Positions 14,464-37,883 are shown, counted from the stretch's first letter. The stretch: 64,000 nt of DNA from Cryomorphaceae bacterium (GCA_019649675.1 BOWN01000001.1:209979-273978); one strand, 5' to 3'. Numbers and translations are program-made. The notes: a model not told the origin generated them from the letters alone.

Positions 14464-14478
14464 GATTTTGAGCTTTTA

Positions 14479-14667
<189 letters not shown>

Positions 14668-14737
14668 TCAATATCTCTGGGATCTAAAACAGATTCAAAA
14701 TTAATAAGCTGATTCAAATCAACCTTAAGTACTCTAC

Positions 14738-15451: not shown

Positions 15452-15465
15452 GTTTAATAAAGCCT

Positions 15466-19769: not shown

Positions 19770-21494
19770 ATGAATAAACTAGTTTGCTTCTTTCTATTTA
19801 TTTCAACATTTACTATTGCCCAGAACAATATCAAAATTGATGGTTTTTTTGATGATTGGACATCAATTGAAAATACTTATTTTGATTCTGAGTTTGACTC
19901 AGAATCTACTGAGCTCATTAACTTCAGTGTTTCAAATAATCATGAATATTTATTTGTTAAAATAAAATTAGGGAACGAAATTGACCTCACAGAACCTTAT
20001 CTAAACCCAGCAAAATTATTTATTTATATTGATGCAGATTACGACAATACTACAGGCTATAATACTAATTATATAGGCTCTGAATATGGCATTAACTTCT
20101 TTGATAAATTCATATTTGATGATAGCAACGAAAATTTTGTTGACACGCTTTCTTTTTATGATCTAAATATAATTCCGTTGCCTACAATTACTTCTGATGA
20201 GTTTGAGATTGCAATAAATCGATCGCTATTTTCTGATACGATTGCTATTTCTATAAAAGAGTCAATTGGTAGCGATGAAATGCCAGATGGTGGGGAAATT
20301 TTTACATACGCTTTTGATAATTCAATTTCTCCAAATATTCAGACTATTAATTTTTCAAAAAATGAGCCTAATCACTTACGACTTATGACTTATAATGTAC
20401 TTTCAGATGGTCTAAAAAATAATACTCGAATTGATGAACATAGAAGAATTTTTACAAGTAGTAATGCAGATATAATTACATTTCAAGAGTGTGGAAACAC
20501 TGATTATAATGATGTACTTGAGTTTTTAGAAAGTAGCTCTGAATATTATCCATACATATATCCTGATTTAAATTCAGGAAATTTAACAGTATCTAAATTT
20601 CCTTCAATTCAATCTTGGCAAGTTGCAAATAAGATTGATGCAGAATTAATTGATTTACCTGATAGTATTTATTCTACAGACATTTTAGTTCTAAATGGCC
20701 ATCCACCTTGTTGTGGAAATAATCAAGGTAGGCAGGAGCATTTTGACGCTTTAATTCAATTTATAAACGATGCTAAAACAGAAGGTGGGGTTATAGATTT
20801 ACCAATTAATACTCCAATTTCTTTTTCCGGAGATATGAACTTGGTTGGATATTCAGAACAATATTATACCATTTTAAATGGAACAATAATAGATACTGTA
20901 ACCTTTGGCAATGGAGGGCTACCTGATTGGGACGGTAGTCCTTTTAAAGACCAAGTATCTTACTTCAACGAAAAAAACATAGCTTACACCTGGGATAAGA
21001 GTAATCCCTCAGCCGGTGATTTTCCTCCAGGGAGATTGGACTTCATCTTCTATAGCAATAGTGTAATAACCTGTGATAAATCTTTTGTTATTTCTACAGA
21101 ACATATGAGTCCTGATTTACTAGTAAGCAATAATTTATTATGGAATGATACTAAAAATGCTTCAGATCATTTTCCCGTGATTGCAGACTTTATTATTGAA
21201 TTTTCTGATGAGTATATTCAAAATCATGGTGGCAATCATCAAATAGAGTGTTTCAATTATAATTTAAATTTAAATCAAGGATGGAGTTTAATTGGCTTTG
21301 GATGTGAAAATAATGCTCAAGCAGATATAGTGTTTCTCCCAATCCTAGACCATCTTGTTATTGCTAAAGATGTAAATGGAAATGCATATCTACCTTCCTG
21401 GAATTATAACGGTTTGGGAAACTTAGAACGTGGATTTGCATACCAGGTTAAACTAGCTGAAGAGTTAGAAAACTATAATATATGTAATCACTGA
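19770..21494 (+). CDS. Secreted endonuclease/exonuclease/phosphatase (EEP) family protein ending in one GW..IG/AYLP.W.FNGIG domain
   Basis: LRLMTYNVL, ITFQECG, SGDMNLVG and SDHFPVIADF EEP motifs. C-terminus 21279-21455: GWSLIGFG...LVIAKDVNGNAYLPSWNYNGLGNLERGFAYQVKL. Confidence 0.85.
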   Translation: MNKLVCFFLFISTFTIAQNNIKIDGFFDDWTSIENTYFDSEFDSESTELINFSVSNNHEYLFVKIKLGNEIDLTEPYLNPAKLFIYIDADYDNTTGYNTNYIGSEYGINFFDKFIFDDSNENFVDTLSFYDLNIIPLPTITSDEFEIAINRSLFSDTIAISIKESIGSDEMPDGGEIFTYAFDNSISPNIQTINFSKNEPNHLRLMTYNVLSDGLKNNTRIDEHRRIFTSSNADIITFQECGNTDYNDVLEFLESSSEYYPYIYPDLNSGNLTVSKFPSIQSWQVANKIDAELIDLPDSIYSTDILVLNGHPPCCGNNQGRQEHFDALIQFINDAKTEGGVIDLPINTPISFSGDMNLVGYSEQYYTILNGTIIDTVTFGNGGLPDWDGSPFKDQVSYFNEKNIAYTWDKSNPSAGDFPPGRLDFIFYSNSVITCDKSFVISTEHMSPDLLVSNNLLWNDTKNASDHFPVIADFIIEFSDEYIQNHGGNHQIECFNYNLNLNQGWSLIGFGCENNAQADIVFLPILDHLVIAKDVNGNAYLPSWNYNGLGNLERGFAYQVKLAEELENYNICNH

Positions 21495-21505
21495 AATCAT
21501 ACTCC

Positions 21506-21606
21506 CTAAACTTTTTAAGATGATTCAAAATCGTTATGAACGCGAATCAACAATGAGAATAAAAAGGGGCAAATTATTTTTAAAAATAACTTGCCCCTTT
21601 TTATTC
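21506..21606 (+). repeat. Intergenic cassette, instance H (includes the 21561 terminator)
   Basis: ctaaacTTTTTAAGATGATTCAAAATCGTTATGAAC...GGGGCAAATTATTTTTAAAAATAACTTGCCCCTTTTTAT. Confidence 0.5.
21561..21602. terminator. Bidirectional terminator hairpin between convergent genes
   Basis: AAAAAGGGGCAA-attatttttaaaaataac-TTGCCCCTTTTT, flanked by an A-run and a T-run. Confidence 0.8.
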
Positions 21607-21618
21607 TTTAGAAGTTCC

Positions 21619-22776
21619 TTAATTTAAAGCTTCTGCTTTTTCTTTTGATACATTGAAAAACTCCTCTGCACCAGTTTTTAAATTCCTACTTAATTCATAT
21701 GCAGTCAAAAACATTTCTTTTGCTTTTAAAGTATCTCCAGAGGCTAAAAGAATATCTCCCATAGAGTCATAAACATTTGGTTCATCAGGATGAATAGTCA
21801 TATTAATATTAATATGATTTTTGGCAGCTTCAAAATTTCCTTTCTCTAACATTAAATATCCCATCATGTTATTTAAAACAATATTTTCTGGAAGTCTTCT
21901 TAATCCAATATTGATATTTTCAATTCTTTCATCTAAATCCTCCAAAAAGTATGCATACCAGCCTCTTAATAGTGGATCATTAGCTGCGTATATTAATGCA
22001 GTTTCATATTTTTCTAGAACTTCTTCTCTCGATGAAGATGGTGATAAGGTCTTTATATAATATTTTTCTGCAAGAGAGGCATTTTTCAATTTTGGTTCAA
22101 TTTCTTTAATAAGCTCATTTAATTCACTACTCTTTCCTTTCATATATAAATAGTGCATTTTACCAACGTGGGCTACTGCTAAATTTGGATCTATTTTAAC
22201 TAAACTATCCGAATAAGCAAGAGCATCATTGTTTCTTAAGTTTGCCATAGCGAATCTCATTTCATTGTATAAATCAAGTGCACCTTCAACTTTTGTTGAT
22301 GGCCATACAAATGAGTTTGCAGACCTATTAATATCCCAATTCATCCAAGAATGTCGTTTGAATACTAATTTTCCATTTTCTTTTGCAATTACAGAATGAA
22401 ATCCAGCTCTCGAAGTTTTAACTCCTGAAACAAACCAGCTAGCATTACCGTATACACTCGCTATATTTCCGATTATTTCAATATCTGTTATTTCGGTTTT
22501 AATAGAGTCCTCATAAAACCATTCAGATTTTATTTTAGATACATCATTAACCCAATCAGGCCTTCCAATCCATCCATTTGATAAATTAAATAATATAATG
22601 GAATCTGAAATATTTTCATCCATTGCCTTGACAGCGCCAACTGAATCAGTTTGAACTTCAAAATGTTCAATTACAAATTTTTCAATATTATTTTTATCTA
22701 ATCTGTTTGAACACCCAACTAAAAAAATTCCGATAGCGATTAATATTATTTTTTTCATTTTTTTCATTTTTTTCAT
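21619..22776 (-). CDS. Lipoprotein with NTF2-like N-terminal domain and TPR repeats
   Basis: MKKMKKMKKIILIAIGIFLVGC lipobox and an IGNIASVYGNASWF cone-like part. The C-terminal half has repeated A..Y/L..G TPR-like helices (GNFEAAKNHININ..., GDTLKAKEMFLTAYEL). Confidence 0.65.
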   Translation of the reverse strand: MKKMKKMKKIILIAIGIFLVGCSNRLDKNNIEKFVIEHFEVQTDSVGAVKAMDENISDSIILFNLSNGWIGRPDWVNDVSKIKSEWFYEDSIKTEITDIEIIGNIASVYGNASWFVSGVKTSRAGFHSVIAKENGKLVFKRHSWMNWDINRSANSFVWPSTKVEGALDLYNEMRFAMANLRNNDALAYSDSLVKIDPNLAVAHVGKMHYLYMKGKSSELNELIKEIEPKLKNASLAEKYYIKTLSPSSSREEVLEKYETALIYAANDPLLRGWYAYFLEDLDERIENINIGLRRLPENIVLNNMMGYLMLEKGNFEAAKNHININMTIHPDEPNVYDSMGDILLASGDTLKAKEMFLTAYELSRNLKTGAEEFFNVSKEKAEALN

Positions 22777-22896
22777 TTTAAATTATGACCAAACCTAACT
22801 AAATTAATTTTAAATTGTTATTCATTATAAAATAAATATGACTATGTGTCCAAAAGCGCTTTAAACTGTAACCAAATATATTGTATGTATACTACT

Positions 22897-25800
22897 CTAA
22901 TAGTTTAGTATATCTTCATATAACATTTTTACTTGATATCCTTCACCTGGTTGCATCTCTCCTATACCATTAAACTCCCACTCAGGTAGAAAAGCAGACC
23001 CTAAATAATCTTTAACGATTAATATGTTTCCTGAATTTATAATTTCTGAGAATACTTCTAATGTGTTTAATGGCTCTTCTCTTAAGTAACCAATCATGTT
23101 CCATCCTTGAGAAAGTATAATAGGATGATCCTCTGGAAAAGCGTAAGCTCCAAAAATCTCTAGAGACAATTCATCATTTGTTTTTATCTGATAACCCTGA
23201 CCAACTTGAAAGTCTCCTATGCCATTAAACTCCCAATCTATTAGATATGCAGCACCAACATAGTCTTTTACGATGATCACATTTTCAGTTATCGGCGAAA
23301 TTACTGTAGCCACATTCATATCATTTGTAATCATATAGCTAGAAAACAAAGACCAGCCAAATGGAAAATTGAGAATCTGTGACAATGGGCTACTTTGAAT
23401 TGAATTATCATTAGTATTATTTGGGCTACCACCTAAATTAATACAATCCCAATTTTCTGGTAACTCGTTGTTTAACTCTGGTGAAATTAATTCTAAAGTA
23501 TATCCCGTTTCATCTGCGCAGCTAGGCCATGGTGCTGTAGATTGGTAGAATACAGAATCTTGTAATGTCCCATTTTGATCATAAAGTCTAATAGCATCAG
23601 ACCCCCCAAAACCAAATCCTAATTCACCTAAGTATGGAATGTTAGGTGAAATAGACACAAAATCATTTATACTTTTGACAATCACAAGATAATCTTCTCC
23701 TTCAATTTGCGTTCCTTCAGGAATGCTAAAAATATGAGTGTCATCTTCATCTTTTATTATCCAATTAGAAATATTAATTGAAGATGTATTTGGATTATAA
23801 AGTTCAATCCAATCATCAGTATCAAGTGTGTCAATAGATCTGTAGTTTATTTCATTAATTACAATAGGAATGTTTGTTTCTGTGGAGACAAAATTTGGAA
23901 TGACTTCAAATTCTCCAGAAAGTAGTACTTCAATAGTTTCACTATTTCCAGCTATGTCTCCACTCCAATGAGAAAATTCGAAACCAAACTCCGCAATTGC
24001 TGTAAGTTTAACTGGTACAGTTTCGAAATAATCTCCAGTCCAGAACTCTTCTTTAATCTTTAAATTTTCGTTGACTTCTACGAATCCTTTATTGGTATCA
24101 TCGTTTGAAATGATCAGAGGATGATAATTAGGAAGATTAAATTCTTCTTTAATATGCTCTTTAGCAATCGGGTGTCTATAAGCTGCAAAACTTTTCATAT
24201 TATCAACATAATATTCAATATGTGAGTTGATGTCTGTTATTTCATAACCAACTGAAGGATCATCTTTCCAACGAGAATAATGTGCTTCTACTTCTGGCTC
24301 AATAGTTGAATAAATTTGATCAATATGGTTGATTACATTATTAGGTAAAAATCTAGTATTTAATTCATCTGCATAACGATTGATGAATTGATTTCTAAAA
24401 CTAATATTTGTGATTAGTTTTCTAAATAATAAAGTCGACCAAGGTGGGTTTGGCCATCCAGGTCCATCCGGGTTTAGAGCAAAACTAAGCGTATTTTCAT
24501 AAAAGTTAGAGATGTTCCAGTATGGACCAAAGCCAAAATCAGTATCATACATGATCCATCGCCATTTTGTCTCAGGATGTTTCCAGAATTTAATATTGTT
24601 TCCCGGCCAGTCAGTATTATTTATGAATATGTTAGTTGCTTGATAAAGTATGTAATTTGTTAAATCAATTTGGTCTTTAATGTATTCAAAATTAGAATCA
24701 TCAGATAAATCGGTATTTTCAATATAATCGATTAGCTGATGATATTCATCATTGCTTCCTTGAATAATTTCTGCATTATTAGTTAGAAGCGAAATACTTC
24801 CGGCATCAATATTGTGTTTAGATGCTAACATGTGCTCATTAATCTTTTCACGCATATTATACATACCCCAATATGAACCATTAATATAGGCTGCAACGGG
24901 ATTGTAATCTTGGAAATCCAATTCAGAATCTCTCATTAAGCTAGTGAGCATTATATCCTTCATACTTGATCTTAACCAATCTTGACCAGAATTTCTAATC
25001 GTAAGTGCCTCAAAGTCATTATAATTTACGTTATCAAAAAAGGAGTGTTCAAATTTTGAATCTCCATATTGCCCTCTTGCAAAAAATGAAAGCGAACGTT
25101 GACCATTTTGACCTCTACTCCAACCACCAAAAATCTTAACTCCTGCATTAAATTCAACAAAATCATCATTATCATTTTCATAAAATGAAAAGTGAATTGG
25201 ACGTTCCCAATCTTCCCAAAAATTTGCTCCGAAGTAAGGTATTGAAGCATCATAAGTCCCTTCTGGACCAAATACGTAAATACCAGAATTATTGTCAAAA
25301 AAATCGATAGGATCAACACTCATTAACAATACATCTAAATCATGATTAGAATTAAAAATATAGGACTCTGTCGAAACTGGTGAAGGAAGATAATTATCCG
25401 AGAATATTTGAGCTCTAACACTCATATTATCAGATATTTCAAATGGATATATATAAATCTGAGAAAATGAATCTGGAGCACTTCCATCTGTTGTGAAACG
25501 AATAATTTGAGATGAATCATTACCTGAAAGAGAAAGATAGAATGGAGAATCTTTTAACCCGCCACTTTCTGAAAAAACAACTTCATTTTGAATACTTCCT
25601 ATAAACTCTTCCGAGTAATTTTCTAGACCGGGTGTGGGTTGTATATAATTAACAATATTTCCAGTTGAGTTTGACACTCCAATTGACACATCAGGTGCTA
25701 ATCCTTCAATTAATAATTGGTCAATAATGTTACCTGAATTATCAGAAAGAGTTATGGTTTCGGAATCAGATGAAATTTTAAAATTTGTATGAAAATTATT

Positions 25801-26655
25801 ATTATCATTTAAATTTAGAACTTCAGGAGGTTCGATTCCGATATTATTTGTTGATGAAAAAATTGCAGACAAAAATGGAATAATTGTAAAGTCTGATGAC
25901 CATGAACTCACATTGTGAGCTTGAATAGCTAGTACATTGTCTCCTTCAACTAGAATTGAGCTAAAATCAGATATAGTAAAGCGATCAGGCACACCTCCAT
26001 AGTACATTTGAGCTTCGTGATCTTGGATTGTAAAGGCATTAAAGGGCGGTGGTACACCATTGATATTAGCACGTGCTATTTCTATTCCATTGATGTAAGC
26101 CACAAAAGCATCATCGTAGTCAATATCGAGAATTAAAGAAATTATTTCACCAACATTACTGATGTTAAAATTTTTCCGCAGATACAAAGACAAGGTTCCA
26201 TTGGGTATGAGGGTAGCATCATCTCCATCTGCATAACCAAAACCAGAAGGACCATCATCCCAAGATGAATCATTAAAATTAATATCAGTCCAGTTTGAGT
26301 TTGGTTCTGAGCTAGGAATAAAATATTTAAAAGTATCACCTTGACTCACTAAAGTTCTTGATGAAGTAATTTGACTTCGGTCTTTGTCTGAAGCCCATAA
26401 CATTAAATAATCATTAGCTGAAATTGTTACATTTGGAAAATGCCATTTAGATAAATCGTTTATTTCATCAGAAATAGTCCAATTTTCAAGATTCACATCT
26501 TGGGAGCCATAATTATAAAGTTCTATCCAATCTGGCGTATCCCCATCTTCGTCAATATAGATTGAATTGGATGAAACTACTTCATTAATTATAACACTTT
26601 GAGCATTTATAATTGTTAAGCTAAACAAGGATAGGTACAGAGTTAAATATTTCAT
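22897..26655 (-). CDS. CotH-family protein with two lamin-tail domains, a CHB_HEX_C-like domain and two terminal GW..IG/AYLP.W.FNGIG domains
   Basis: LTD: VIINEVVSSNS...DWIELYN and IVINEINYRS...DDWIELYNP. FTTDGSAPDS. Central CotH-like region (MREKINEHMLA...). GW copies at 23180-23358 and 22930-23106. Confidence 0.75.
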   Translation of the reverse strand: MKYLTLYLSLFSLTIINAQSVIINEVVSSNSIYIDEDGDTPDWIELYNYGSQDVNLENWTISDEINDLSKWHFPNVTISANDYLMLWASDKDRSQITSSRTLVSQGDTFKYFIPSSEPNSNWTDINFNDSSWDDGPSGFGYADGDDATLIPNGTLSLYLRKNFNISNVGEIISLILDIDYDDAFVAYINGIEIARANINGVPPPFNAFTIQDHEAQMYYGGVPDRFTISDFSSILVEGDNVLAIQAHNVSSWSSDFTIIPFLSAIFSSTNNIGIEPPEVLNLNDNNNFHTNFKISSDSETITLSDNSGNIIDQLLIEGLAPDVSIGVSNSTGNIVNYIQPTPGLENYSEEFIGSIQNEVVFSESGGLKDSPFYLSLSGNDSSQIIRFTTDGSAPDSFSQIYIYPFEISDNMSVRAQIFSDNYLPSPVSTESYIFNSNHDLDVLLMSVDPIDFFDNNSGIYVFGPEGTYDASIPYFGANFWEDWERPIHFSFYENDNDDFVEFNAGVKIFGGWSRGQNGQRSLSFFARGQYGDSKFEHSFFDNVNYNDFEALTIRNSGQDWLRSSMKDIMLTSLMRDSELDFQDYNPVAAYINGSYWGMYNMREKINEHMLASKHNIDAGSISLLTNNAEIIQGSNDEYHQLIDYIENTDLSDDSNFEYIKDQIDLTNYILYQATNIFINNTDWPGNNIKFWKHPETKWRWIMYDTDFGFGPYWNISNFYENTLSFALNPDGPGWPNPPWSTLLFRKLITNISFRNQFINRYADELNTRFLPNNVINHIDQIYSTIEPEVEAHYSRWKDDPSVGYEITDINSHIEYYVDNMKSFAAYRHPIAKEHIKEEFNLPNYHPLIISNDDTNKGFVEVNENLKIKEEFWTGDYFETVPVKLTAIAEFGFEFSHWSGDIAGNSETIEVLLSGEFEVIPNFVSTETNIPIVINEINYRSIDTLDTDDWIELYNPNTSSINISNWIIKDEDDTHIFSIPEGTQIEGEDYLVIVKSINDFVSISPNIPYLGELGFGFGGSDAIRLYDQNGTLQDSVFYQSTAPWPSCADETGYTLELISPELNNELPENWDCINLGGSPNNTNDNSIQSSPLSQILNFPFGWSLFSSYMITNDMNVATVISPITENVIIVKDYVGAAYLIDWEFNGIGDFQVGQGYQIKTNDELSLEIFGAYAFPEDHPIILSQGWNMIGYLREEPLNTLEVFSEIINSGNILIVKDYLGSAFLPEWEFNGIGEMQPGEGYQVKMLYEDILNY

Positions 26656-26783
26656 AATTGATAGCTAAGTTATGCTATAAGATTCATGCGTGTTGTTTCA
26701 AATATAATTATGATTGAAGGTCAATTATTCTTGAGCAACAAAAATGATTGGTATAAATAAAGGTATGCAAAAAAGTTTTTTCA

Positions 26784-27566
26784 TTATTCGCAAATGTTAT
26801 AATTACTTATTTCTTCTGAAACTTTTATTAAGTAACCATAACCTCTTTCTAGATCTCCAATACCATTAAAATTCCAATCTGGTAAATATGCATTACCTTG
26901 TCCGTCTTTAGCAATAATAATTTTGTCTTGGATTGCGGCAAAAACATTTATTGCGTTTGTGTTTTCTGAACAATAAAACCCAATCATATTCCAACCCTGA
27001 GATAATAAAATTGAAATACTAGAACATGGATTATTTGAAATATAATTACACTCACCATTTGTAAAATCATTGATACTATTACATGCTGCATCTCCAGAAT
27101 TTGAATATGTAACACCATCACATCCACAAACAGGATCCCAAACAGCAAGTGACATACATCCTAATATAAGATTTGCATCACATTGATCTAAATTATTTTC
27201 AAAATAACATGAACCATCGTCTTGATTTGCATTAGAATTATAATTTGATGCACTTTCATCTGTACAACCTAAAAAAACTGACACCATTTCTCCATCACAA
27301 TAACTATTATCAATAGTTATTTGTCCGCCTAAACAATCATTAGAACCACCAGAAACCCATCCGCCCCATGAATATTGCCAAATACAACCATCAATATTTT
27401 CGCATGATACTTGTTCATTAAAAGAAGAACAATTATATGTGGTGATTTGCTCAATCCATTCTCCTTCGCAATAAGTATTGGATTGCGAATACATATAACA
27501 TGGAAATAATAATACAACCATATATAATTTATAAAAAGACTTTTTCATAATATAAAGGTTTATCAA
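26784..27566 (-). CDS. Secreted Cys-rich protein with Kazal-like motif, one GCTD..NYN..DDGSC repeat and terminal GW..IG domain
   Basis: Likely start MKKSFYKLYMVVLLFPCYMYSQ (27548). WDPVCGCDGVTYSNSGDAAC is Kazal-like. GCTDESASNYNSNANQDDGSC. GWNMIGFY...IIIAKDGQGNAYLPDWNFNGIGDLERGYGYLIKV (26820-26996). Confidence 0.7.
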   Translation of the reverse strand: MINLYIMKKSFYKLYMVVLLFPCYMYSQSNTYCEGEWIEQITTYNCSSFNEQVSCENIDGCIWQYSWGGWVSGGSNDCLGGQITIDNSYCDGEMVSVFLGCTDESASNYNSNANQDDGSCYFENNLDQCDANLILGCMSLAVWDPVCGCDGVTYSNSGDAACNSINDFTNGECNYISNNPCSSISILLSQGWNMIGFYCSENTNAINVFAAIQDKIIIAKDGQGNAYLPDWNFNGIGDLERGYGYLIKVSEEISNYNICE

Positions 27567-27661
27567 TCAAATATATGAAATATATAGGTGGAGTTATTTT
27601 TTATAAATTACCAGACCTTCTCTTGAAAATCGTTTAAAAGGATAGGAAAAATTTTAGGTAA

Positions 27662-27689
27662 TAAAAAAGCCTCTCAAGATGAGTGGCTT
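27662..27689 (-). terminator. Rho-independent terminator (minus strand)
   Basis: The minus strand reads AAGCCACTC-atctt-GAGAGGCTT followed by TTTTTTAT. Its stem is nearly the same as the 7283 terminator. Confidence 0.65.
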
Positions 27690-27713
27690 GAAAACTTTAA
27701 GTAATTTTTTACT

Positions 27714-27914
27714 CTAATCACCAAATGAAAAAGTAACAGGATTTAGCATATTAATTTGATAACCATGACCTGGTAATAGATCTCCCAAATTATTGTAGTT
27801 GTATTCTGGCCAATAAATCAGACCATCATTATCTTTAACAATCCAGATGTCATCTTCAATTAGTTCAAATTTCTCCTGAGATGAGGATGAAAAAATTAAA
27901 TTATACCCAATCAT
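27714..27914 (-). CDS. Small secreted protein, C-terminal fragment = GW..IG/AYLP.W.FNGIG domain (gene span 27714-28161)
   Basis: (EGWN)MIGYNLIF...IWIVKDNDGLIYWPEYNYNNLGDLLPGHGYQINM. Confidence 0.7.
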   Translation of the reverse strand: MIGYNLIFSSSSQEKFELIEDDIWIVKDNDGLIYWPEYNYNNLGDLLPGHGYQINMLNPVTFSFGD

Positions 27915-27933
27915 ATTCCAACCTTCTTGTAAT

Positions 27934-28161
27934 TCAAGAACTATGCAACTCAGAGGATCCTATAACCATATTGTTCTGATTTAAAGCAACTATATATGCG
28001 TCTGTATCTGAAATAGGTAATGATTGAACAAATGAGGGTTGTAAAAGAACTGTCATATTAATTCCAGTATTTCCAACATAAGGTTCTGGCAGGTCACATA
28101 CTTGAGCTGAGAGACAAAAACTTAAAAAAAGTGTCGTTAAAAAAAGAATTTGCTTTTTCAT
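27934..28161 (-). CDS. Small secreted protein, N-terminal fragment = signal peptide plus first half of the GNTG.NMT module found in the giant protein
   Basis: MKKQILFLTTLFLSFCLSAQ, then VCDLPEPYVGNTGINMTVLLQPSFVQSLPISDTDAYIVALNQNNMVIGSSEL. Compare the giant protein: CIFPLEFTGNTGVNMTVFLTSSVIDNLPISSEDPYLVALNSSGLILGSASL. Confidence 0.7.
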   Translation of the reverse strand: MKKQILFLTTLFLSFCLSAQVCDLPEPYVGNTGINMTVLLQPSFVQSLPISDTDAYIVALNQNNMVIGSSELHSS

Positions 28162-28323: not shown

Positions 28324-31089
28324 TTAAGGAATAAATCTCTTATCTATCTTCCCATTATCGTATATGTAAAAAAGAATTATACCTCTATTGTGTACTTTTT
28401 GTTCTCGACCAAAAATATCAACCATTTTGATTAATTTGTAATCTTCATCACTTATTTCATTAATACCAATACCATCATCATAGTCACAAGCATCACCTTC
28501 TCCATCTTGATCAATATCAATTTGATCAAAATTACTGATATCTATACAGTTATCTAATTCATCACAAACACCGTCACTGTCTATATCTGAGATACAATTA
28601 CCATCACAGTCATAATAATCTTCAGCATACTCACATGTTCCATCATCTGTTGCTAAAGAATCATAGTTACAAGCGATATCATCAGTACATCCTACAACCT
28701 CTAATTCATCACATACACCGTCACTGTCTATATCTGAGATACAATTACCATCACAGTCATAATAATCTTCAGCATACTCACATATTCCATCATCTGTTGC
28801 TAAAGAATCATAGTTACAAGCGATATCATCAGTACATCCTACAACCTCTAATTCATCACATACACCGTCACTGTCTATATCTGAGATACAATTACCATCA
28901 CAGTCATAGTAATCTTCAGCATACTCACATATACCATCATCTGTTGCTAAAGAATCATAGTTACAAGCGATATCATCAGTACATCCTACAACCTCTAATT
29001 CATCACATACACCGTCACTGTCTATATCTGAGATACAATTACCATCACAGTCATAATAATCTTCAGCATACTCACATGTTCCATCATCTGTTGCTAAAGA
29101 ATCATAGTTACAAGCGATATCATCAGTACATCCTACAACCTCTAATTCATCACATACACCATCTCCATCAGTATCATTTAGGCAATCTCCATTACAGTCA
29201 TAATTTGTTTCTGCATAAGTACATGAGCTATCATCATCTGTTGCTAAAGAATCATAGTTACAAGCGGTATCATTAGTACATCCTACAATCTCTAATTCAT
29301 CACATACACCGTCACTATCTATATCTGAGATACAGTTACCATCACAGTCATAGTAATCTTCAGCGTATTCACATGTACCGTCATCTGTATTTACATCTGA
29401 GGAGTAATTACATGCTATCGAATCCATACAACCATTAATGACTAGAACATCACAAGAACCATCATTTACATTAAAGAGTTCGTTGTACTCTATATAAGCA
29501 GGATTTGTACATCCATACCATATACAAGTTCCATTATTAACGTTTGCTAAAGAATCATAATTATCAGCACCTGATTCAGTACAACCATCAATTATTGGAA
29601 TACAAGAATCATTGTCAGTATTTGCTTCAGAATTATAATTTAATGCAGTTGGATTAGTACAACCATAAATAAATGGCTCACAGGTGCCATCATCAGTATT
29701 TGCTAATTGATCATAATTATAAGAACCTTCATCTGTACAACCTAAAATATATGGAATACAAGAACCATCATCTATATTAGCAAGCGAATCATAATTTAAT
29801 GCCCATGAGTAGGTACAGCCTTGAATAATTGGTACACAAGAGCCATCATCAGTATTTGCTAAATAGTTAAAGTTTAAAGACAAACTATCAATACAACCTT
29901 GAATTACCGGCTCACACGAATCATCATCTGTGTTGGCGAGTTCTGAATAATTAAAGGCTGTTGAATCTGTACAACCTTCAACTACTGCCTCACACGAATC
30001 ATCATCTATATTTGCTAGTGAATTATAATTGTATGAATTAACATCTGTACAACCAAAAACAGACGGAATACATGATCCATCATCAGTATTTACAAGTTCT
30101 TCATAATTTAATGCTGAAGGATCTGTACAACCTTCAACAATAGATTCACAAGCCCCATCATCACTATTTGCTAATGGATTAAAATTAAATGCTGTTGAAT
30201 CTGTACAACCAAAAATGGTATAAATACAGCTTCCATTATCTGAAGTTGCTTCAGAATTATAATTATCTGCATTTTCATCTGTACAACCTTCTATTAAATA
30301 GATACAAGAACCATTATCAATTGTAGCTTCTGAATTATAATTTACTGCTTGATCATCTGTACATCCATATGTAGCATTTAGTTGTGAACATGAACCATCA
30401 TCTACATTTGCATCAATAGAATATTCAGCATAATCAAAGTTTGTACAACCATAAACTATAAGGTTTGAACATGAACCATCATCAAGATTTGGAATACTCT
30501 CTAAAGCAGTGATACTATTGGACATTGGATCATAATCCCAATACTCTAAGTATGCTTCATCAGAACAACCCTCTACAATCAATGTTAAACATGAACCATC
30601 ATCTGTATTTGCTTCAACATTATATTCAAGATAATTTACATCTGTACAACCTAATTCTACTAATGTGATGCATTGTGTTTCATCAGAAGAATTCGCATTA
30701 ATATCATATTCTAAATAATTATCATTCATACAACCTTCGACTATTTGTGTAATACACATTTCGTTATTAGGCGTATTTGCTTGTTCGTCATATTCTAGAT
30801 AATTTATATCAAGACATCCCTCAATTATCAGAGTTAAACAAGATGAATCATCAGTATTTGCTTCTTGATTATACTCTAAATAGAGAGGATCTGTACAACC
30901 TTCAAATACTTCGTTAATACACATTTCACTATCAGATGTGTTTGCTTGTTCATCATATTCTAAATAATTAATATCTAAACAACCTTCAATTACCAATATT
31001 AAACAAGATGAATCATCAGTATTTGCAAGTGCATTATATTCTAAATAGAGTGGATCTGTACAACCTTCAAGTACTTCTGTAACACACAT
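28324..31089 (-). CDS. Giant Cys-repeat surface protein, fragment 7 of 7 (C-terminus with T9SS-type tail; gene span 28324-39892)
   Basis: About 17 GCTD..A.NY....AN.DDGSC repeats, six 49-aa units with DSDGVCDELE (TSP3-like), tail KLIKMVDIFGREQKVHNRGIILFYIYDNGKIDKRFIP. Confidence 0.85.
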   Translation of the reverse strand: MCVTEVLEGCTDPLYLEYNALANTDDSSCLILVIEGCLDINYLEYDEQANTSDSEMCINEVFEGCTDPLYLEYNQEANTDDSSCLTLIIEGCLDINYLEYDEQANTPNNEMCITQIVEGCMNDNYLEYDINANSSDETQCITLVELGCTDVNYLEYNVEANTDDGSCLTLIVEGCSDEAYLEYWDYDPMSNSITALESIPNLDDGSCSNLIVYGCTNFDYAEYSIDANVDDGSCSQLNATYGCTDDQAVNYNSEATIDNGSCIYLIEGCTDENADNYNSEATSDNGSCIYTIFGCTDSTAFNFNPLANSDDGACESIVEGCTDPSALNYEELVNTDDGSCIPSVFGCTDVNSYNYNSLANIDDDSCEAVVEGCTDSTAFNYSELANTDDDSCEPVIQGCIDSLSLNFNYLANTDDGSCVPIIQGCTYSWALNYDSLANIDDGSCIPYILGCTDEGSYNYDQLANTDDGTCEPFIYGCTNPTALNYNSEANTDNDSCIPIIDGCTESGADNYDSLANVNNGTCIWYGCTNPAYIEYNELFNVNDGSCDVLVINGCMDSIACNYSSDVNTDDGTCEYAEDYYDCDGNCISDIDSDGVCDELEIVGCTNDTACNYDSLATDDDSSCTYAETNYDCNGDCLNDTDGDGVCDELEVVGCTDDIACNYDSLATDDGTCEYAEDYYDCDGNCISDIDSDGVCDELEVVGCTDDIACNYDSLATDDGICEYAEDYYDCDGNCISDIDSDGVCDELEVVGCTDDIACNYDSLATDDGICEYAEDYYDCDGNCISDIDSDGVCDELEVVGCTDDIACNYDSLATDDGTCEYAEDYYDCDGNCISDIDSDGVCDELDNCIDISNFDQIDIDQDGEGDACDYDDGIGINEISDEDYKLIKMVDIFGREQKVHNRGIILFYIYDNGKIDKRFIP
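28545..29440 (-). repeat. Tandem 147-bp (49-aa) near-identical coding repeats, about 6 units
   Basis: The anchor ccgtcactgt recurs at 28571, 28718, 28865 and 29012 (period 147), with diverged units at 29159 and 29309. Each unit encodes YDCDGNCISDIDSDGVCDELEVVGCTDDIACNYDSLATDDG.CEYAED. Confidence 0.9.
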
Positions 31090-31262
31090 TGAAGCATCAG
31101 ATGTATTTGCAAGTGGATTGTATTCTAAATAATTTAAATCAGTACAACCTAAAACAACTTCTGTCTCACACGAACCATCGTCAGTGTTAGCAATAGGATT
31201 GTACTCAATATATGTTAGATCTGTACAACCATAAACAATAATAGTTTGACAAGCGGATTCAT

Positions 31263-31499
31263 TTAATGTATTAGCTTGGGGATTATATTCAAGATAATTT
31301 GCATCTGTACACCCGAAATCAATTCAGTTATACACATTGAAGAGTTAAATATGTTAGCATTTTCGTCAAACTCTAAATAATTAGAATCCATACAACCAGA
31401 AATTGCAATAGTTAAACATGAACCATCATCTGTATTTGCTTCAAAATCGTATTCTAAATATTCCGGATTAGTACATCCTTCAACTATATTAGTAAACAT
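31263..31499 (-). CDS. Giant Cys-repeat surface protein, fragment 6
   Basis: EGCTNPEYLEYDFEANTDDGSC and SGCMDSNYLEFDENAN repeats. Frame changes on both sides. Confidence 0.75.
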   Translation of the reverse strand: MFTNIVEGCTNPEYLEYDFEANTDDGSCLTIAISGCMDSNYLEFDENANIFNSSMCITELISGVQMQIILNIIPKLIH

Positions 31500-31894
31500 T
31501 GAGTTTGATCATTTGTATTTGCAGTAACCGAGTATTCAAGATAACTTGAGTCTGTACATCCGTATACAATTAATGTAATACAAGAATCCTGATCTTCTTG
31601 ATTTGCTAACGGATTGAAATCAACATATGAATTATCCATACAGCCAGCCAAGATTTCGTTTACACATTGAGAAGAATCAGATACGTTTGCAGTTTCATCA
31701 TACTCTAAATAATTTGAATCTGTACAACCTGTAATCGCAAGAGTTAAGCACAACGTTTCATCGGACGTATTCGCACTTACATCATATTCCAGATAATCTG
31801 AATCAGTACAACCTAATTCTATTTCATTTACACATGAGCTAGGATCAGTATCTGTATTAGCTTCTTGACTATACTCTATATAGTTTTGGTCCAT
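31484..31894 (-). CDS. Giant Cys-repeat surface protein, fragment 5
   Basis: Four repeats of GC(T/M)D..Y.E(Y/F)...AN......C. Confidence 0.75.
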   Translation of the reverse strand: MDQNYIEYSQEANTDTDPSSCVNEIELGCTDSDYLEYDVSANTSDETLCLTLAITGCTDSNYLEYDETANVSDSSQCVNEILAGCMDNSYVDFNPLANQEDQDSCITLIVYGCTDSSYLEYSVTANTNDQTQCLLI

Positions 31895-32088
31895 ACAGCC
31901 ATATGATATTGCTTCACAAGACCCATCATCTATATTTGCATCTGCATTATAATTAATAGCATTTAAATCAGTACAGCCTTCAACAATTAGAGTAACACAA
32001 GACTCATCGTCTATATTAGCATCAGCGTTATACTCAAGATATAGAGTATCAGTACACCCTGTAACTACTTCAACACAAGAGCCATCAT

Positions 32089-35000
32089 CTACAAAGCTTC
32101 TGAATCGAAGTTAAATGCAAGAGGGTCGGTACATCCTTCACTAAATTCACAAACAGCAGGGTTTGAAGTTACAATTGCTGCTACAGCTGGATTATATAAT
32201 GAATTATTTGGATCAGCCACAGGGAAATAGTTATTCGCCAAAGTATCTATACAAACTTCATTTGAAGATCTTGATCCAAAATCATATGAACATGGATCAG
32301 AATTATCCTCAGCACTAACCTGATTGACAGTTGCTAGTGGATTATAGTTATCAATAAATGGGAAATCAAACATACACCCATAAATAACTTCAATACACTC
32401 ACCTTCTATGTTTGCATTTTCATTGTAGTTAGCTGCAGACTCATCCATACACCCTTGAATAGTTGCTATACAAGAACTTGGATCAGTATCAGTATTTGCC
32501 TCAGGATTATAATTGAATGCCAATGGATTAGAACAACCAATAATCTCTGACTCACAGTCACCAGAATCAGTATTTGCTAATGGATTATAATTTACTGCCA
32601 TTTCATCTGTACAGCCATAAATATATGCTATACATGAGTTGTCATTAGAGTTAGCTTCAGAATTGTAATTAAATGCTAATGGATTGGTACATCCTGGAAT
32701 CTCAGGAGTACAAGAACCATCATCTGTATTTGCATTTATATTATAATTTAGTGCAATTTCATCTGTACAACCATATATAATAGCAATACAATTACCATTA
32801 TTTACATTGGCTGTAGCATTATAATTAAACGCAAATGGATTAGTACATCCATATACAACATCAATACATGAACCATCATCTGTATTTGCATAAGAGTTAT
32901 AATTTAATGCAGAAGAATCTGTACAACCAAATACTTTAGCAATACAGCTTCCATCATTTACATTAGCTTCAGGGTCATAATTTAATGCAATAGGGTTAGA
33001 ACATCCATATACAATTCCAATACAAGAACCATCATCTGTATTAGCTTGAGCAAAATAATTCAAGGCCATTTCATCTGTACATCCATATACATATGAAATA
33101 CAAGAATTGTCATTTGTGTTAGCTAAAGAGCTGTAGTTTAGTGCATATGGATTTGTACATCCATATACAATATCAATACAAGAGCCATCATCTGTATTTG
33201 CTTGAGCAAAATAATTCAAGGCCATTTCATCTGTACATCCATAAATAACAGAAATACAAGAACCATCGCTAACAGTAGCATTAATATCATAGTTTAATGC
33301 AAGAGGATTTAAACATCCATATACAATGTCAATACAAGAACCATCATCATTATTAGCAAATGAATTAAAGTTCAATGCAGATTCATCTGTACAACCAAAG
33401 ACAACAGCAATACAAGAACCATCACTAACAGTAGCATTAATATCATAATTAAATGCAAGTGGATTAGTACAACCATAAATAAGTTCTACACAAGAGCCAT
33501 TATCAGTGTTTGCAAATGAATTATAGTTTATTGCAGAATTACTTGTACAACCAAAGACAATTGCTTCACAAGATCCATCATTAATATTTGCTTCTGAGTT
33601 AAAGTTAAAAGCAACTGGATTTGTACATCCATAAATAGCTTGAACACAGACTCCGTTGTCTGTATTTGCATTAGGATTATAATTATATGCTGAAGGATCT
33701 GTACAGCCATAAATAACAGCTTCACAAGATCCATCGTTGGTATTAGCATCTGCATTAAAGTTAAATGCAACAGGATTAGTACAACCATATACAGCTATCA
33801 CACATACTCCATTGTCAGTGTTAGCATTTGGATTGTAATTTGTTGCTCCTGGGTCAGTACAACCATAAACTATTGGCTCACATGACCCATCATTTACATT
33901 TGCTATTTCATTATAATTAAATGCAATTGGATTTGTACATCCATATATTGTTTCAATACACGAACCATTATCTGTATTAGCATTAGGATTATAATTAAAT
34001 GCTGAAGGGTCTGTACAGCCAAAAACTTGCTGTTGACATGAACCATCATTGACATTAGCATTAGAATTGTAATTAAATGCAGTTGGGTTTGTACAGCCAA
34101 ATATTTGCTCAATACATGAGCCATTATCTGTATTTGCATTAATATTATAATTGAATGCAATAGGGTCTGTACATCCTTCTATGACTGCAACACATGAACC
34201 ATCATTTGTATTTGCATTTTCATCATAATTAAAAGCACTAGCCTCATTACACCCCTCAATTACAGGCACACAACCACCATTATCTATATTTGCATTTGGG
34301 TTATAGTTAAAAGCTGATATGTCAATACACCCATAAACAATTGCTTCACAGGATCCATCATTTGTGTTAGCATTTTCATCATAGTTAATTGCATTTTCAT
34401 CGGTACAACCATAAGTGAAAGCTTCACATGATCCATCGTCAGTGTTTGCATTAGCATTAAAATTAAATGAAGTAGGATCAATACAACCCAAAATAATGGT
34501 AACACAAGAACCATCGTTCATATTTGCAACTTCATCATAATTAAAAGCACTAGGTTCGGTACATCCCTCTATTACAGGGACACAACTACCATTATCCAAA
34601 TTAGCATTTGGATCAAAATTAAACGATGAAGCATCTGTACAGCCTGATACTATCAGGTTAAAACAAGTACCATTATCAATATTTGCAGCTTCATCAAACT
34701 CAATAAATAAATCATTTGTACAACCATATACAACAGGTGTGGTACATGAGCTATCATCTATATTGGCATTAGGATTATACTCTAAGTAAGTTGGATTAGT
34801 ACAACCATAGTAAGCAAATGTAATGCAACTTCCATTATCAATATTTGCCTCCTCATTATACTCAACATAAGTAGCATCTGTACATCCATAAACTATTAAT
34901 TCTTGACAAGAGCCATCATTAACATTTGCTTCAAAATCAAATTCAATAAACAAATCACTTGTACAACCATAAACTGCAATATTTAAACAAGTTCCATTAT

Positions 35001-37779: not shown

Positions 37780-37827
37780 GTTTACTCCTGTATTTCCTGT
37801 AAATTCTAATGGGAAAATACACGCAGA
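37357..37827 (-). repeat. Near-identical ~470-bp intragenic duplicate, copy A2
   Basis: See copy A1. It differs from A1/A3 in a short patch (GAEMYFQF versus GDELYFQF). Confidence 0.85.
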
Positions 37828-37883
37828 ATGATCATAATCACATGACCCGTTATCAATTGTTGCATCTAAGTTATAATTTAAAG

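What the first reader, a model, noticed from the sequence alone, without database searches (positions are those of the whole stretch)
19770..28161. Unrecognised ~60-65 aa C-terminal domain shared by five neighbouring secreted proteins (seven copies)
Five proteins with unrelated catalytic or functional parts all terminate in the same module. Its consensus, read off the translations, is GW(N/S)(M/L)IG-x(15-25)-(I/V)(I/V)(K/A)(D/N)xxGxAYLPxWx(F/Y)NGIGx(L/F)xxGxGYQ(I/V)K.

**Copies**
- EEP phosphoesterase: 21279-21455.
- CotH/LTD protein: 23180-23358 and 22930-23106, in tandem.
- Kazal-like protein: 26820-26996.
- Small protein: 27740-27923.
- PHM-like protein further left: 8769-8950 and 9018-9201.

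**Why it stands out**
- All five have Sec signal peptides, but none has the compact T9SS tail seen on four other secreted proteins in this window.
- Four of the five genes are contiguous and directly abut the giant repeat protein.
- The domain is always C-terminal, is sometimes doubled, and sits on diverse enzymes next to a huge scaffold-like protein. That arrangement is the logic of dockerin/cohesin-type or cell-surface-anchoring modules. A new class of secretion or sorting tail is the alternative.
- I cannot match it to type A (TIGR04183-like) or type B (CHU_C-like) T9SS CTD patterns, or to any other named family, from memory.
Basis: partly seen in the sequence, partly recalled or inferred. 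Interest (0 to 1): 0.85.

Follow-up and report, generated by a model that had tools for sequence, protein, structure and literature searches.

The report
New docking-like domain on flavobacterial secreted proteins
The repeated tail is a real, very abundant and so far unannotated ~75-residue protein module of uncultured marine Flavobacteriales and their phages; it is not a secretion signal, and it most likely helps assemble or dock surface proteins with a second unannotated module found on the neighbouring giant protein.

Summary
All seven copies are real (HMM E 1e-31 to 1e-37 each) and no others occur in the window. The module is about 75 aa. It has no Pfam, NCBIfam or PDB sequence match. Its AlphaFold model is very confident (pLDDT 96) and alpha/beta, with no structural match in the PDB. 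It is unrelated to T9SS CTD profiles.

The family is large: 8,866 clusters at 50% identity, almost all from uncultured marine Flavobacteriales. "Always C-terminal" holds only in this window. In about a third of relatives a tandem pair is followed by an ~110-aa "NMT" beta-sandwich plus a T9SS tail. That NMT module is homologous to the six GNTGxNMT modules of the giant protein. Some copies sit directly after the signal peptide.

Three unannotated modules (GCTD Cys repeat, NMT, GW) form a lineage-specific toolkit. GW and NMT are fused in many proteins. They are adjacent separate genes in some genomes, where the NMT gene is a stand-alone 243-aa NMT-CTD. They also alternate as separate genes in a conserved phage tail module.

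A new sorting tail is rejected. GW-NMT docking is the best reading but is indirect and untested. The "small protein" is a frame-broken remnant and the PHM-like gene is also frame-broken.

The parts
19770..21494 (+). Intact gene: signal peptide, Exo_endo_phos (EEP) phosphoesterase, single C-terminal GW domain
   Evidence: ORF. PF03372 E 7.9e-12.
21258..21488 (+). GW domain, single 'Cys-type' copy (GFGC ... NYNIC at the C-terminus)
   Evidence: HMM i-E 8.9e-34. Alignment.
22897..26655 (-). Intact gene: signal peptide, LTD, CHB_HEX_C, CotH, LTD, GW-GW tandem at the C-terminus
   Evidence: ORF. CotH 1.4e-46 and LTD 2.2e-33.
23149..23379 (-). GW domain, first copy of the tandem (GWSLFSSYM type)
   Evidence: HMM i-E 2.4e-33.
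22900..23127 (-). GW domain, second copy of the tandem (GWNMIGYLR type). The protein ends right after the last strand (..ILNY)
   Evidence: HMM i-E 2.7e-31. Terminal-tail classes.
26784..27566 (-). Intact gene: signal peptide, Cys-rich region with one GCTD repeat and a weak Kazal match, single C-terminal GW domain
   Evidence: ORF. Kazal_2 E 0.0022, below cut-off. GCTD plus GW hits.
26787..27017 (-). GW domain, single Cys-type copy. This is the sequence that was modelled
   Evidence: HMM i-E 9e-37. AF2 pLDDT 96.3, pTM 0.83.
27717..27941 (-). GW domain of the 'small protein'. It is out of frame with the upstream signal-peptide ORF, so it is a gene remnant
   Evidence: HMM i-E 1.3e-34. Frames. 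The same break occurs in independent contig L081.
27934..28161 (-). 75-aa ORF: signal peptide plus the N-terminal half of an NMT module (VGNTGINMTVLL...)
   Evidence: Partial NMT HMM hit, E 9e-4, HMM positions 7-49. Also.
8745..8975 (+). GW domain, first tandem copy, at the end of the frame-disrupted PHM-like/haem-motif gene
   Evidence: HMM i-E 4.1e-34. Frame breaks.
8997..9245 (+). GW domain, second tandem copy. It is followed by the short ..FSIFDSY tail
   Evidence: HMM i-E 3e-33.
28324..39892 (-). Giant secreted protein, broken into several frames in this assembly: signal peptide, 6 NMT modules, about 106 GCTD Cys repeats, Asp-rich repeats, compact T9SS-like tail
   Evidence: Translations. 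Module scan.
39464..39793 (-). NMT module 1 of the giant protein. The other five are at 38815-39153, 37477-37806, 36760-37089, 36271-36597 and 35641-35982
   Evidence: An HMM built only from cassette proteins of other organisms hits all six at i-E 2e-8 to 2e-12. Coordinates.
28339..28455 (-). Compact (~40-45 aa) T9SS-like tail of the giant protein
   Evidence: Compact-tail HMM hit. It aligns to the central and last strands of full type A CTDs. It is not detected by PF18962 or TIGR04183.

Best explanation
**Shown**
- The repeat is an autonomous, previously unannotated ~75-residue alpha/beta module. Its signature is GW-x-I-G ... I-I-V-K-D-x-x-G-x-A-Y-L-P-E-W-N-F-N-G-I-G-x-L-x-P-G-x-G-Y-Q-I-K. 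I call it the GW domain here.
- It is carried by Sec-exported proteins (extracytoplasmic location is inferred from the signal peptides).
- It comes in three forms: a first tandem copy, a second tandem copy, and a single copy with a conserved Cys pair, probably a disulfide (inferred).
- It is one of three lineage-specific modules (GCTD Cys repeat, NMT beta-sandwich, GW). In uncultured marine Flavobacteriales these build stereotyped C-terminal cassettes: X-GCTD(n)-[NMT]-GW-GW-[NMT-T9SS tail].
- It is not itself a secretion signal.

**Inferred**
- The GW unit (a tandem, or a single copy that may pair up) is a protein-protein assembly or docking module. Its partner is the NMT beta-sandwich.
- In cassette proteins the two pack in cis.
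- In proteins that end in GW and lack a T9SS tail, such as the EEP, CotH and Kazal-like proteins here, the free GW unit would bind NMT modules that have no GW of their own. Candidates are the six NMT modules on the adjacent T9SS-tailed giant protein, or the stand-alone 243-aa NMT-CTD protein of related genomes. Diverse enzymes would then be displayed on T9SS-anchored scaffolds.
- Phages of these bacteria use the same pair in their tail apparatus.
For: **The domain is real and new**
- Seven copies at E 1e-31 to 1e-37.
- No Pfam, NCBIfam or PDB sequence match.
- AF2 pLDDT 96.3, pTM 0.83. Best Foldseek PDB hit is E 0.74 with TM below 0.47.
- 8,866 representative clusters at E<=1e-3 and 5,548 at E<=1e-10.
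- 80 loci, nearly all from uncultured marine Flavobacteriales MAGs and SAGs, with 8-9 loci per genome.

**It is not a sorting tail**
- hhalign probability against T9SS CTD profiles is 0.2%.
- It is internal in about one third of relatives and directly follows the signal peptide in some.
- The tails after it carry PF18962 or TIGR04183.

**The GW-NMT link**
1. NMT directly precedes and/or follows the GW pair in more than half of the top 150 representatives and in many loci.
2. The cassette NMT is homologous to the giant protein's modules.
3. The cassette model has continuous pLDDT >=88 across NMT1-GW1-GW2. pTM of 0.61 for 500 residues implies a rigid body of about 300 residues. This is my inference; no PAE was available.
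4. A highly conserved stand-alone SP-NMT-CTD gene has a single-GW gene as immediate neighbour in 4 of 5 distinct genomic contexts.
5. Eight IMG/VR contigs share a tail module with separate adjacent genes [GW-GW][NMT-like][GW-GW in three of them]. In every contig tested a PHROG tail-fibre hit lies just downstream. A BFVD viral protein matches the GW fold at TM 0.67.
6. In this window six NMT modules without GW sit next to GW proteins without NMT.
7. Both GW-terminal and T9SS-tailed classes have SPI-type signal peptides. The conserved Cys pair of the single-copy form fits an oxidising compartment.
Against: - No binding was tested. The tools allowed no complex prediction and gave no PAE.
- Fusion and neighbourhood evidence also fits modules that are merely co-inherited building blocks.
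- The most common genomic context of the stand-alone NMT-CTD gene has no GW gene within 6 kb.
- Most GW loci have no NMT-only protein (NMT without GW) nearby.
- The giant-protein adjacency is absent from L001, the fetched genome locus most similar to the Kazal-like copy.
- The phage 'NMT-like' match covers only the GDD..T..KDG..GE half of the module, at E about 1e-5.
- NMT shows no cohesin-like fold match.
- How T9SS-tail-less GW proteins would cross the outer membrane is unexplained.
Confidence: 0.45

Rival explanations
1. The GW domain binds a non-protein ligand of the cell envelope or of particles, such as a surface glycan, LPS or capsule. It would hold secreted enzymes on the cell surface without a covalent bond. 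Phages would carry it in their tails to adsorb to the same ligand. This is the logic of cell-wall-binding modules shared by Gram-positive surface proteins and phage endolysins.
For: - It occurs in a conserved phage tail module next to tail-fibre genes.
- It works at either end of a protein.
- One strongly conserved aromatic/polar stretch (AYLPEWNFNGIG..PG.GYQ.K) is kept across thousands of paralogues. That fits a single common ligand.
- It is carried by many enzyme classes, not only CAZymes.
Against: - No similarity to any CBM, lectin, SH3-like or Listeria GW family.
- It does not explain why NMT flanks the GW pair so regularly, or why phages place an NMT-like gene between GW genes.
- No ligand can be inferred with these tools.
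Confidence: 0.25
2. GW is only a structural spacer or (pseudo)dimerisation element of multidomain secreted proteins, comparable to PKD, FN3 or Big domains. The tandem would form a pseudo-dimer and single copies would homodimerise. It would have no specific heterologous partner.
For: - Distinct first-copy and second-copy subtypes with a conserved PE..P linker, and very high pLDDT across the GW1-GW2 junction.
- Stereotyped position between repeats and the T9SS tail.
- One protein has ten copies arranged as five pairs.
- The giant-protein adjacency is not conserved.
Against: - Sequence conservation is higher than usual for spacers: 35-55% identity between paralogues on unrelated proteins, with an invariant motif.
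- It is retained as the only accessory module on many small enzymes.
- It is selectively present in phage tail modules together with an NMT-like gene.
- It is linked to stand-alone NMT-CTD genes.
Confidence: 0.2
3. GW is a new class of C-terminal secretion or sorting signal, for example a third type of T9SS CTD.
For: In this window all seven copies are C-terminal, on Sec-signal proteins that lack a recognisable T9SS tail.
Against: - In about one third of relatives it lies upstream of a bona fide type A CTD.
- In others it is directly behind the signal peptide or internal.
- It is often doubled.
- Its fold and profile are unrelated to CTDs.
- It occurs in phage structural proteins.
Confidence: 0.03
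4. GW is merely a divergent member of a known family: a T9SS CTD, a CBM, an NHL blade, a dockerin or the Listeria GW/SH3 module.
For: - A weak PDB sequence match to NHL-type propeller blades (E 0.019).
- The Gly-Trp start and tandem C-terminal placement resemble Listeria GW modules (from my own knowledge of that family).
Against: - No Pfam or NCBIfam hit at E<=1 for any of 27 members beyond noise.
- Foldseek PDB best hit is E 0.74.
- The NHL hits are sums of sub-threshold stretches, each with E above 10.
Confidence: 0.04

Closest known systems
Cohesin-dockerin system of cellulosomes
   Same: A small module on diverse enzymes, single or duplicated and usually C-terminal. A second module is repeated on a large surface-anchored scaffold. 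Some proteins carry both modules. The scaffold has its own anchoring signal.
   Different: There is no sequence or fold relationship. GW is alpha/beta and has no Dockerin_1 hit. NMT has no cohesin hit and looks transthyretin- or pilin-like at best. GW can be internal or N-terminal. Binding is not demonstrated. The host is a Gram-negative Bacteroidota with a T9SS, so an outer-membrane crossing step would also be needed.
T9SS type A C-terminal sorting domain (TIGR04183 / PF18962)
   Same: A ~75-aa domain at the C-terminus of diverse Sec-exported Bacteroidota proteins. It occurs in the same proteins and genomes.
   Different: Profiles are unrelated (hhalign 0.2%). The fold is alpha/beta rather than a beta-sandwich. 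GW is frequently upstream of a genuine CTD, doubled or N-terminal.
Non-covalent cell-surface binding modules shared by hosts and phages (Listeria GW/SH3b modules, choline-binding repeats, SLH)
   Same: Tandem modules of ~70-80 aa at protein termini that retain unrelated enzymes at the surface. They are shared between bacterial surface proteins and the proteins of their phages.
   Different: There is no homology: no PF13457 or other hit, and no SH3-like fold match. The ligand is unknown. The regular pairing with the NMT module has no counterpart in those systems.
Pre-CTD accessory domains of T9SS cargo (Ig-like, PKD, FN3 stalks)
   Same: They sit between the functional domain and the CTD in many cargo proteins and are reused across unrelated enzymes.
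   Different: The sequence motif is far more conserved. The fold has no PDB match. GW also occurs as the terminal domain on CTD-less proteins and in phage tail modules.

Membership tests
T9SS type A CTD (TIGR04183 / PF18962 Por_Secre_tail) | Match to the curated profile | tested here: not met
   No hit at E<=1 for the window copies or for 27 family members. hhalign of the GW profile against a CTD profile gives probability 0.2%. As a positive control, the same libraries detect the CTD in P0142, P0177 and P0376.
T9SS type A CTD (TIGR04183 / PF18962 Por_Secre_tail) | Ig-like beta-sandwich fold | tested here: not met
   The AF2 model (pLDDT 96.3) has two helices and seven short strands. No CTD structure appears among the 50 Foldseek PDB matches printed (94 at E<=10); the best is E 0.74.
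T9SS type A CTD (TIGR04183 / PF18962 Por_Secre_tail) | Obligatory position at the extreme C-terminus, one copy | tested here: not met
   35 of 103 related ORFs and 55 of 150 representatives continue with NMT plus a T9SS tail. Tandems are the rule. Some copies follow the signal peptide directly.
T9SS type A CTD (TIGR04183 / PF18962 Por_Secre_tail) | T9SS-dependent export and removal by the PorU sortase | not testable with these tools
   Needs secretome work in a cultivated relative.
T9SS type B CTD (TIGR04131 / PF13585 CHU_C) | Match to the curated profile | tested here: not met
   No hit in Pfam or NCBIfam scans.
Dockerin (PF00404) / cohesin (PF00963) pair | Dockerin: duplicated Ca-binding F-hand segment matching Dockerin_1 | tested here: not met
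   No Dockerin_1 hit for any GW copy. Dockerin_1 is detectable in this set-up: P0121 has one at 3348-3400.
Dockerin (PF00404) / cohesin (PF00963) pair | Cohesin: nine-strand jelly-roll module on the scaffold | tested here: not met
   The giant-protein NMT module has no Pfam hit. Foldseek of the cassette model returns pilin and transthyretin-like sandwiches, with no cohesin among the 50 matches printed. The query was multidomain, so sensitivity was limited.
Dockerin (PF00404) / cohesin (PF00963) pair | Specific high-affinity binding between the enzyme-borne and scaffold-borne modules | not testable with these tools
   Only indirect evidence is available: cis fusions, adjacent split genes, phage synteny and the pTM of the cassette model.
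Listeria-type GW module (PF13457, SH3-like) | Profile match and SH3-like barrel | tested here: not met
   No Pfam hit. No SH3-like structures among the Foldseek matches.
Carbohydrate-binding modules (any Pfam CBM family) | Profile or fold match to a CBM family | tested here: not met
   No CBM hit in Pfam. The only CBM among the Foldseek matches is CBM_E1, at E 3.0 and TM 0.29.
NHL repeat / beta-propeller blade | Significant repeat match and propeller fold | tested here: not met
   PDB profile hits to Pizza and PknD reach E 0.019-0.11 only by summing stretches whose individual E-values exceed 10. The model is not a propeller blade.

The most novel reading that the evidence does not exclude
GW and NMT form a heterotypic docking pair that is functionally analogous to dockerin-cohesin but evolutionarily unrelated to it. 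The pair would let Sec-exported enzymes without a T9SS tail bind T9SS-tailed carriers and scaffolds: the giant protein here, or the ubiquitous 243-aa NMT-CTD protein elsewhere. Binding could occur in the periplasm, so the enzymes ride through the T9SS as folded passengers and end up displayed on the cell surface. Phages of these abundant marine Flavobacteriales would have captured the same pair for their tail apparatus, either to build it or to latch onto host surface scaffolds.
Probability: 0.2. Interest if true: 0.9.

Novelty: new variant of a known kind. Interest (0 to 1): 0.62.

Why it matters
Thousands of secreted proteins of abundant, uncultured surface-ocean Flavobacteriales carry this module. 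They include nucleases or phosphatases, CotH kinases, peptidases, GH16 enzymes, cupredoxins and thioredoxins. All are currently labelled 'hypothetical' over this region.

Defining the GW, NMT and GCTD modules would improve annotation of marine metagenomes. It would also delimit the real catalytic parts of these exoenzymes.

If the docking reading is right, it would reveal a cellulosome-like display principle coupled to the type IX secretion system. It would also reveal a route by which proteins without a T9SS signal reach the surface. The same modules in phage tail gene clusters give a handle on host recognition for phages of a group with no cultured hosts.

Tried and rejected
1. **Known-family assignment.** Pfam, NCBIfam and PDB sequence profiles, Foldseek against PDB, and hhalign against T9SS CTD and NMT profiles found nothing significant. 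The NHL-like PDB hit is a sum of sub-threshold stretches.
2. **Extra copies.** I looked for more copies in the window, including inside the giant protein. There are none.
3. **New sorting tail.** Rejected on domain position across relatives.
4. **Lipoprotein anchoring of GW-terminal proteins.** Their signal peptides are SPI-type (..AQ cleavage), with no lipobox pattern.
5. **Conserved linkage to a giant protein.** Not found in the L001 locus or in most loci.
6. **Typing the giant protein's NMT modules.** I asked whether they match the subtype that precedes GW or the subtype that precedes the CTD. Scores are similar (39-65 versus 40-47 bits), so this is uninformative.
7. **The ~275-aa CTD proteins upstream of GW-GW peptidase-like genes as hidden NMT carriers.** No NMT signal.
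8. **Intact homologues of the PHM-like gene.** None among the fetched loci and representatives, so pseudogene versus assembly error stays open.
9. **Literature.** Searches for the motifs and for the MAG lineages returned nothing relevant.
10. **PHROGs on the phage GW and NMT-like proteins themselves.** No family. Only the downstream tail-fibre genes are recognised.

**Caveats on the numbers**
- The first homologue search returned only short fragments.
- The top 150 representatives are biased towards tandems.
- The genome scan used one peptide pattern.
- The proportions quoted are therefore indicative only.

Full report
**1. Observation**

An HMM built from the seven copies and run on all six frames of the window finds exactly seven domains:
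- 21258-21488 (+)
- 23149-23379 (-)
- 22900-23127 (-)
- 26787-27017 (-)
- 27717-27941 (-)
- 8745-8975 (+)
- 8997-9245 (+)

Each scores i-E 1e-31 to 1e-37. The next best segment has E 0.78. The module is about 75 residues. Its invariant positions are G8, W9, I35, K37, G41, N51, G54 and Y62.

The carrier proteins are as stated: Exo_endo_phos (7.9e-12), CotH (1.4e-46) with two LTD domains, and a weak sub-threshold Kazal match. The PHM-like part has no significant family.

Four corrections are needed.
- The 'small protein' is two ORFs in different frames. One is a 75-aa ORF with the signal peptide and the first half of an NMT module. The GW part is in another frame. The identical break is present in an independent metagenome contig that is 98.7% identical (L081). 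It is a real remnant.
- The PHM-like gene is split over several frames.
- The giant gene is also split over several frames.
- A TPR gene lies between the EEP and CotH genes.

**2. What the domain is not**

- No Pfam or NCBIfam family matches the copies or any of 27 family members.
- The PDB sequence profile search gives only sub-threshold NHL-like stretches.
- AlphaFold2 with a 27-sequence alignment gives pLDDT 96.3 and pTM 0.83. The fold is compact and alpha/beta: two strands, two short helices, then five short strands.
- Foldseek finds no PDB relative. The best hit has E 0.74 and all TM-scores are below 0.47.
- Profile-profile comparison with T9SS tails taken from the same protein set gives probability 0.2%.

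It is therefore not a divergent type A or type B CTD, a CBM, a dockerin or a Listeria-type GW module.

**3. How common it is and where**

- A full HMMER scan of 1.84 billion representative proteins finds 8,866 clusters at E<=1e-3 and 5,548 at E<=1e-10.
- All named hits are 'hypothetical protein' from marine metagenomes or Bacteroidota MAGs.
- In GTDB representative genomes the 80 loci kept come almost entirely from uncultured marine Flavobacteriales MAGs and SAGs (UBA6772, MED-G21, 'Cryomorphaceae' and others). Single genomes contribute 8-9 loci each.
- The one 'Pseudobdellovibrionaceae' contig (L041) is 88.8% identical in DNA to the window's CotH gene. It is probably mis-binned.

**4. Architecture across relatives**

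This is the key result. In 103 related ORFs with a stop codon, the distance from the last GW domain to the stop falls into classes:

| Distance to stop | ORFs |
|---|---|
| 0-12 aa | 61 |
| about 181 aa | 22 |
| about 222 aa | 13 |
| other | 7 |

The top 150 representatives show the same classes.

The tails consist of an ~110-aa module with the signature (T/D)-x-N-M-T ... VWGDD..T..KDG, followed by a tail. That tail is either a full Por_Secre_tail (PF18962/TIGR04183) or a compact ~45-aa tail. The compact tail aligns to the central and last strands of the full CTD.

An HMM built only from these foreign cassettes hits all six GNTGxNMT modules of the window's giant protein (i-E 2e-8 to 2e-12). 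It also hits the truncated module of the small ORF.

Scanning with four home-made HMMs shows stereotyped architectures. The commonest are:
- X-GCTD(n)-GW-GW
- X-GCTD(n)-NMT-GW-GW-NMT-CTD
- X-GCTD(n)-GW-GW-NMT-CTD
- X-GCTD-GW (single, Cys-type)

Other observations on architecture:
- Some single copies sit directly after the signal peptide (L019, L020) or are followed by other domains.
- N-terminal partners include LTD, Kazal, AhpC/thioredoxin, GH16, trypsin, cupredoxin, arylsulfotransferase, YHYH, DUF285 and PKD.
- Both GW-terminal and T9SS-tailed proteins have SPI-type signal peptides.

These facts exclude a sorting-signal role. They show that GW, NMT and the GCTD repeat are a lineage-specific module toolkit. 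The window's giant protein contains 6 NMT modules, about 106 GCTD repeats and a compact tail. The Kazal-like protein also contains one GCTD repeat.

**5. Evidence bearing on mechanism**

(a) Cis coupling. NMT immediately precedes and/or follows the GW pair in more than half of the top representatives.

(b) Cassette model. The model of a natural NMT-GW-GW-NMT-CTD protein (P0149, 70-sequence alignment) has mean pLDDT 86.4 and pTM 0.61. pLDDT stays at or above 88 from residue 30 to 320, which spans NMT1, GW1 and GW2. It dips only in the GW2-NMT2 linker and just before the tail. For 500 residues, a pTM of 0.61 needs a rigid body of about 300 residues. I infer that NMT1 packs on the GW pair. No PAE was available to confirm this.

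(c) Split genes. A stand-alone signal peptide-NMT-type A CTD protein of 243 aa is highly conserved (74-99% identity over more than 120 clusters). In four of five distinct genomic contexts a gene with a single GW domain is its immediate neighbour (L004, L015, L086/087, L088-090). In two of these contexts (L086/087 and L088-090) the GW gene starts 25 bp downstream. In the commonest context, beside carotenoid genes, none lies within 6 kb.

(d) Phages. Ten IMG/VR contigs encode GW domains. Eight share a syntenic block:

[~1,100 aa] [~200 aa] [GW-GW ~250 aa] [NMT-like ~260 aa] [GW-GW ~320 aa in three of them] [~130 aa] [large protein]

- The large downstream protein has PHROG tail-fibre hits in L098, L101, L103, L104 and L105.
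- The NMT-like proteins match the GDD..T..KDG..GE half of the module at E about 1e-5 in all five tested.
- BFVD contains a viral protein that matches the GW model at TM 0.67 and probability 1.0.

(e) Termination points. Terminal tandem proteins stop either right after the last strand (..LQY) or at ..LSNxxSY. The second point is exactly where cassette proteins continue with R/K and the NMT module. GW-terminal and cassette forms therefore look like truncation or fusion variants of each other.

(f) Fold of NMT. Foldseek on the cassette model returns only generic pilin- or transthyretin-like sandwiches and no cohesin.

**6. Interpretation**

Shown:
- a new, abundant module carried by Sec-exported (hence presumably extracytoplasmic) proteins;
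- not a secretion signal;
- evolutionarily and positionally coupled to the NMT module;
- shared with phage tail modules.

Inferred (confidence about 0.45):
- GW is a protein-protein assembly or docking module whose partner is NMT.
- GW units without NMT on T9SS-tail-less enzymes (EEP, CotH and Kazal-like here) would bind NMT modules without GW on T9SS-tailed scaffolds.

Rivals:
- a surface-ligand-binding retention module also used by phages (0.25);
- a plain structural or dimerisation spacer (0.2);
- a sorting tail or a divergent known family (0.03-0.04 each).

Against the specific 'giant scaffold' picture:
- In L001, the fetched genome locus with the closest match to the Kazal-like copy (88% aa), the Kazal-like GW gene sits between IS copies with no giant protein nearby.
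- Most loci lack NMT-only neighbours, meaning proteins with NMT but no GW.
- How T9SS-tail-less GW proteins would cross the outer membrane remains open. Hitch-hiking on NMT-CTD carriers is a speculative but testable answer.

**7. Comparison and novelty**

In logic the system resembles cohesin-dockerin display and host/phage-shared surface-binding modules. In membership it fails every tested defining feature of those families and of T9SS CTDs (see the membership table).

I rate it a new variant of a known kind: a modular docking or accessory domain of secreted proteins. It is built from domain families that no curated library holds, and the GW fold has no PDB match.

Interest is moderate to high. 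The annotation value is clear. The mechanistic claim is attractive but indirect.

Noticed in passing
window 19273-19401 (+), 28339-28455 (-), about 10051-10188 (+): Three proteins in the window end in a compact ~40-45-aa tail (..LVKIINVVGQEV..ILFYIYRDGTVQKK..). PF18962 and TIGR04183 do not detect it. In otherwise homologous cassettes it occupies exactly the position of a full type A CTD, and it aligns to that CTD's central and last strands. It may be a shortened T9SS signal missed by current models.
   Followed up: partly
window 27714-28161 (-); L081: The small gene is a frame-broken fusion of half an NMT module with a GW domain. An independent metagenome contig carries the identical break, so it is a genuine remnant rather than a sequencing error.
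   Followed up: yes
window about 7400-9245, 10369-11862, 13188-15780, 28324-39892: Several genes are split over two or more frames: the PHM-like gene, a pair of ORFs that look like one hydrolase, the carotenoid genes and the giant gene. The carotenoid genes are intact at 380, 207 and 491 aa in L082. The cause could be assembly frameshifts in AT-rich or repetitive DNA, or real gene decay. This was not resolved.
   Followed up: partly
window 28324-39892 (-) and 27200-27300 (-): A ~30-aa Cys repeat, GCTDxxAxNYNxxANxDDGSC, occurs about 106 times in the giant protein and once in the Kazal-like protein. It has no Pfam match. In relatives it nearly always precedes the GW or NMT modules.
   Followed up: partly
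L098-L105 (IMG/VR contigs), e.g. L104 4401-7005: A conserved phage tail gene block has separate GW-GW, NMT-like and (in three contigs) second GW-GW genes. It lies between a ~1,100-aa protein and a downstream large protein that has tail-fibre matches in the five contigs where I tested it. These are presumably phages of the same uncultured Flavobacteriales.
   Followed up: partly
P0376 family; L082-L097: A 243-aa protein consisting only of signal peptide, NMT module and type A CTD is extremely conserved and abundant in marine metagenomes. It often lies beside the carotenoid gene cluster. The window has the carotenoid genes but an unrelated 228-aa ORF (16920-17606) on that side.
   Followed up: partly
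relatives: GW-terminal tandem proteins frequently end at ..LSNxxSY. In cassette proteins the same motif continues with R/K, a low-confidence linker and the NMT module. This could mark an evolutionary break point or a processing site.
   Followed up: no
L041 (PASJ01000006.1): A contig binned as Pseudobdellovibrionaceae is 88.8% identical in DNA to the window's CotH-GW gene. It is probably a mis-binned flavobacterial contig.
   Followed up: no
P0121 (3,424 aa, representative library): One protein carries ten GW domains as five pairs. It also has PKD domains, a Laminin_G_3 domain and a genuine Dockerin_1 domain at its C-terminus.
   Followed up: no
L001 62-7422: In L001, the genome locus with the closest match to the Kazal-like GW copy, the Kazal-like GW gene is flanked by four copies of the same transposase-like ORF. 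This suggests that these secreted-protein genes are mobile or rearranged.
   Followed up: no
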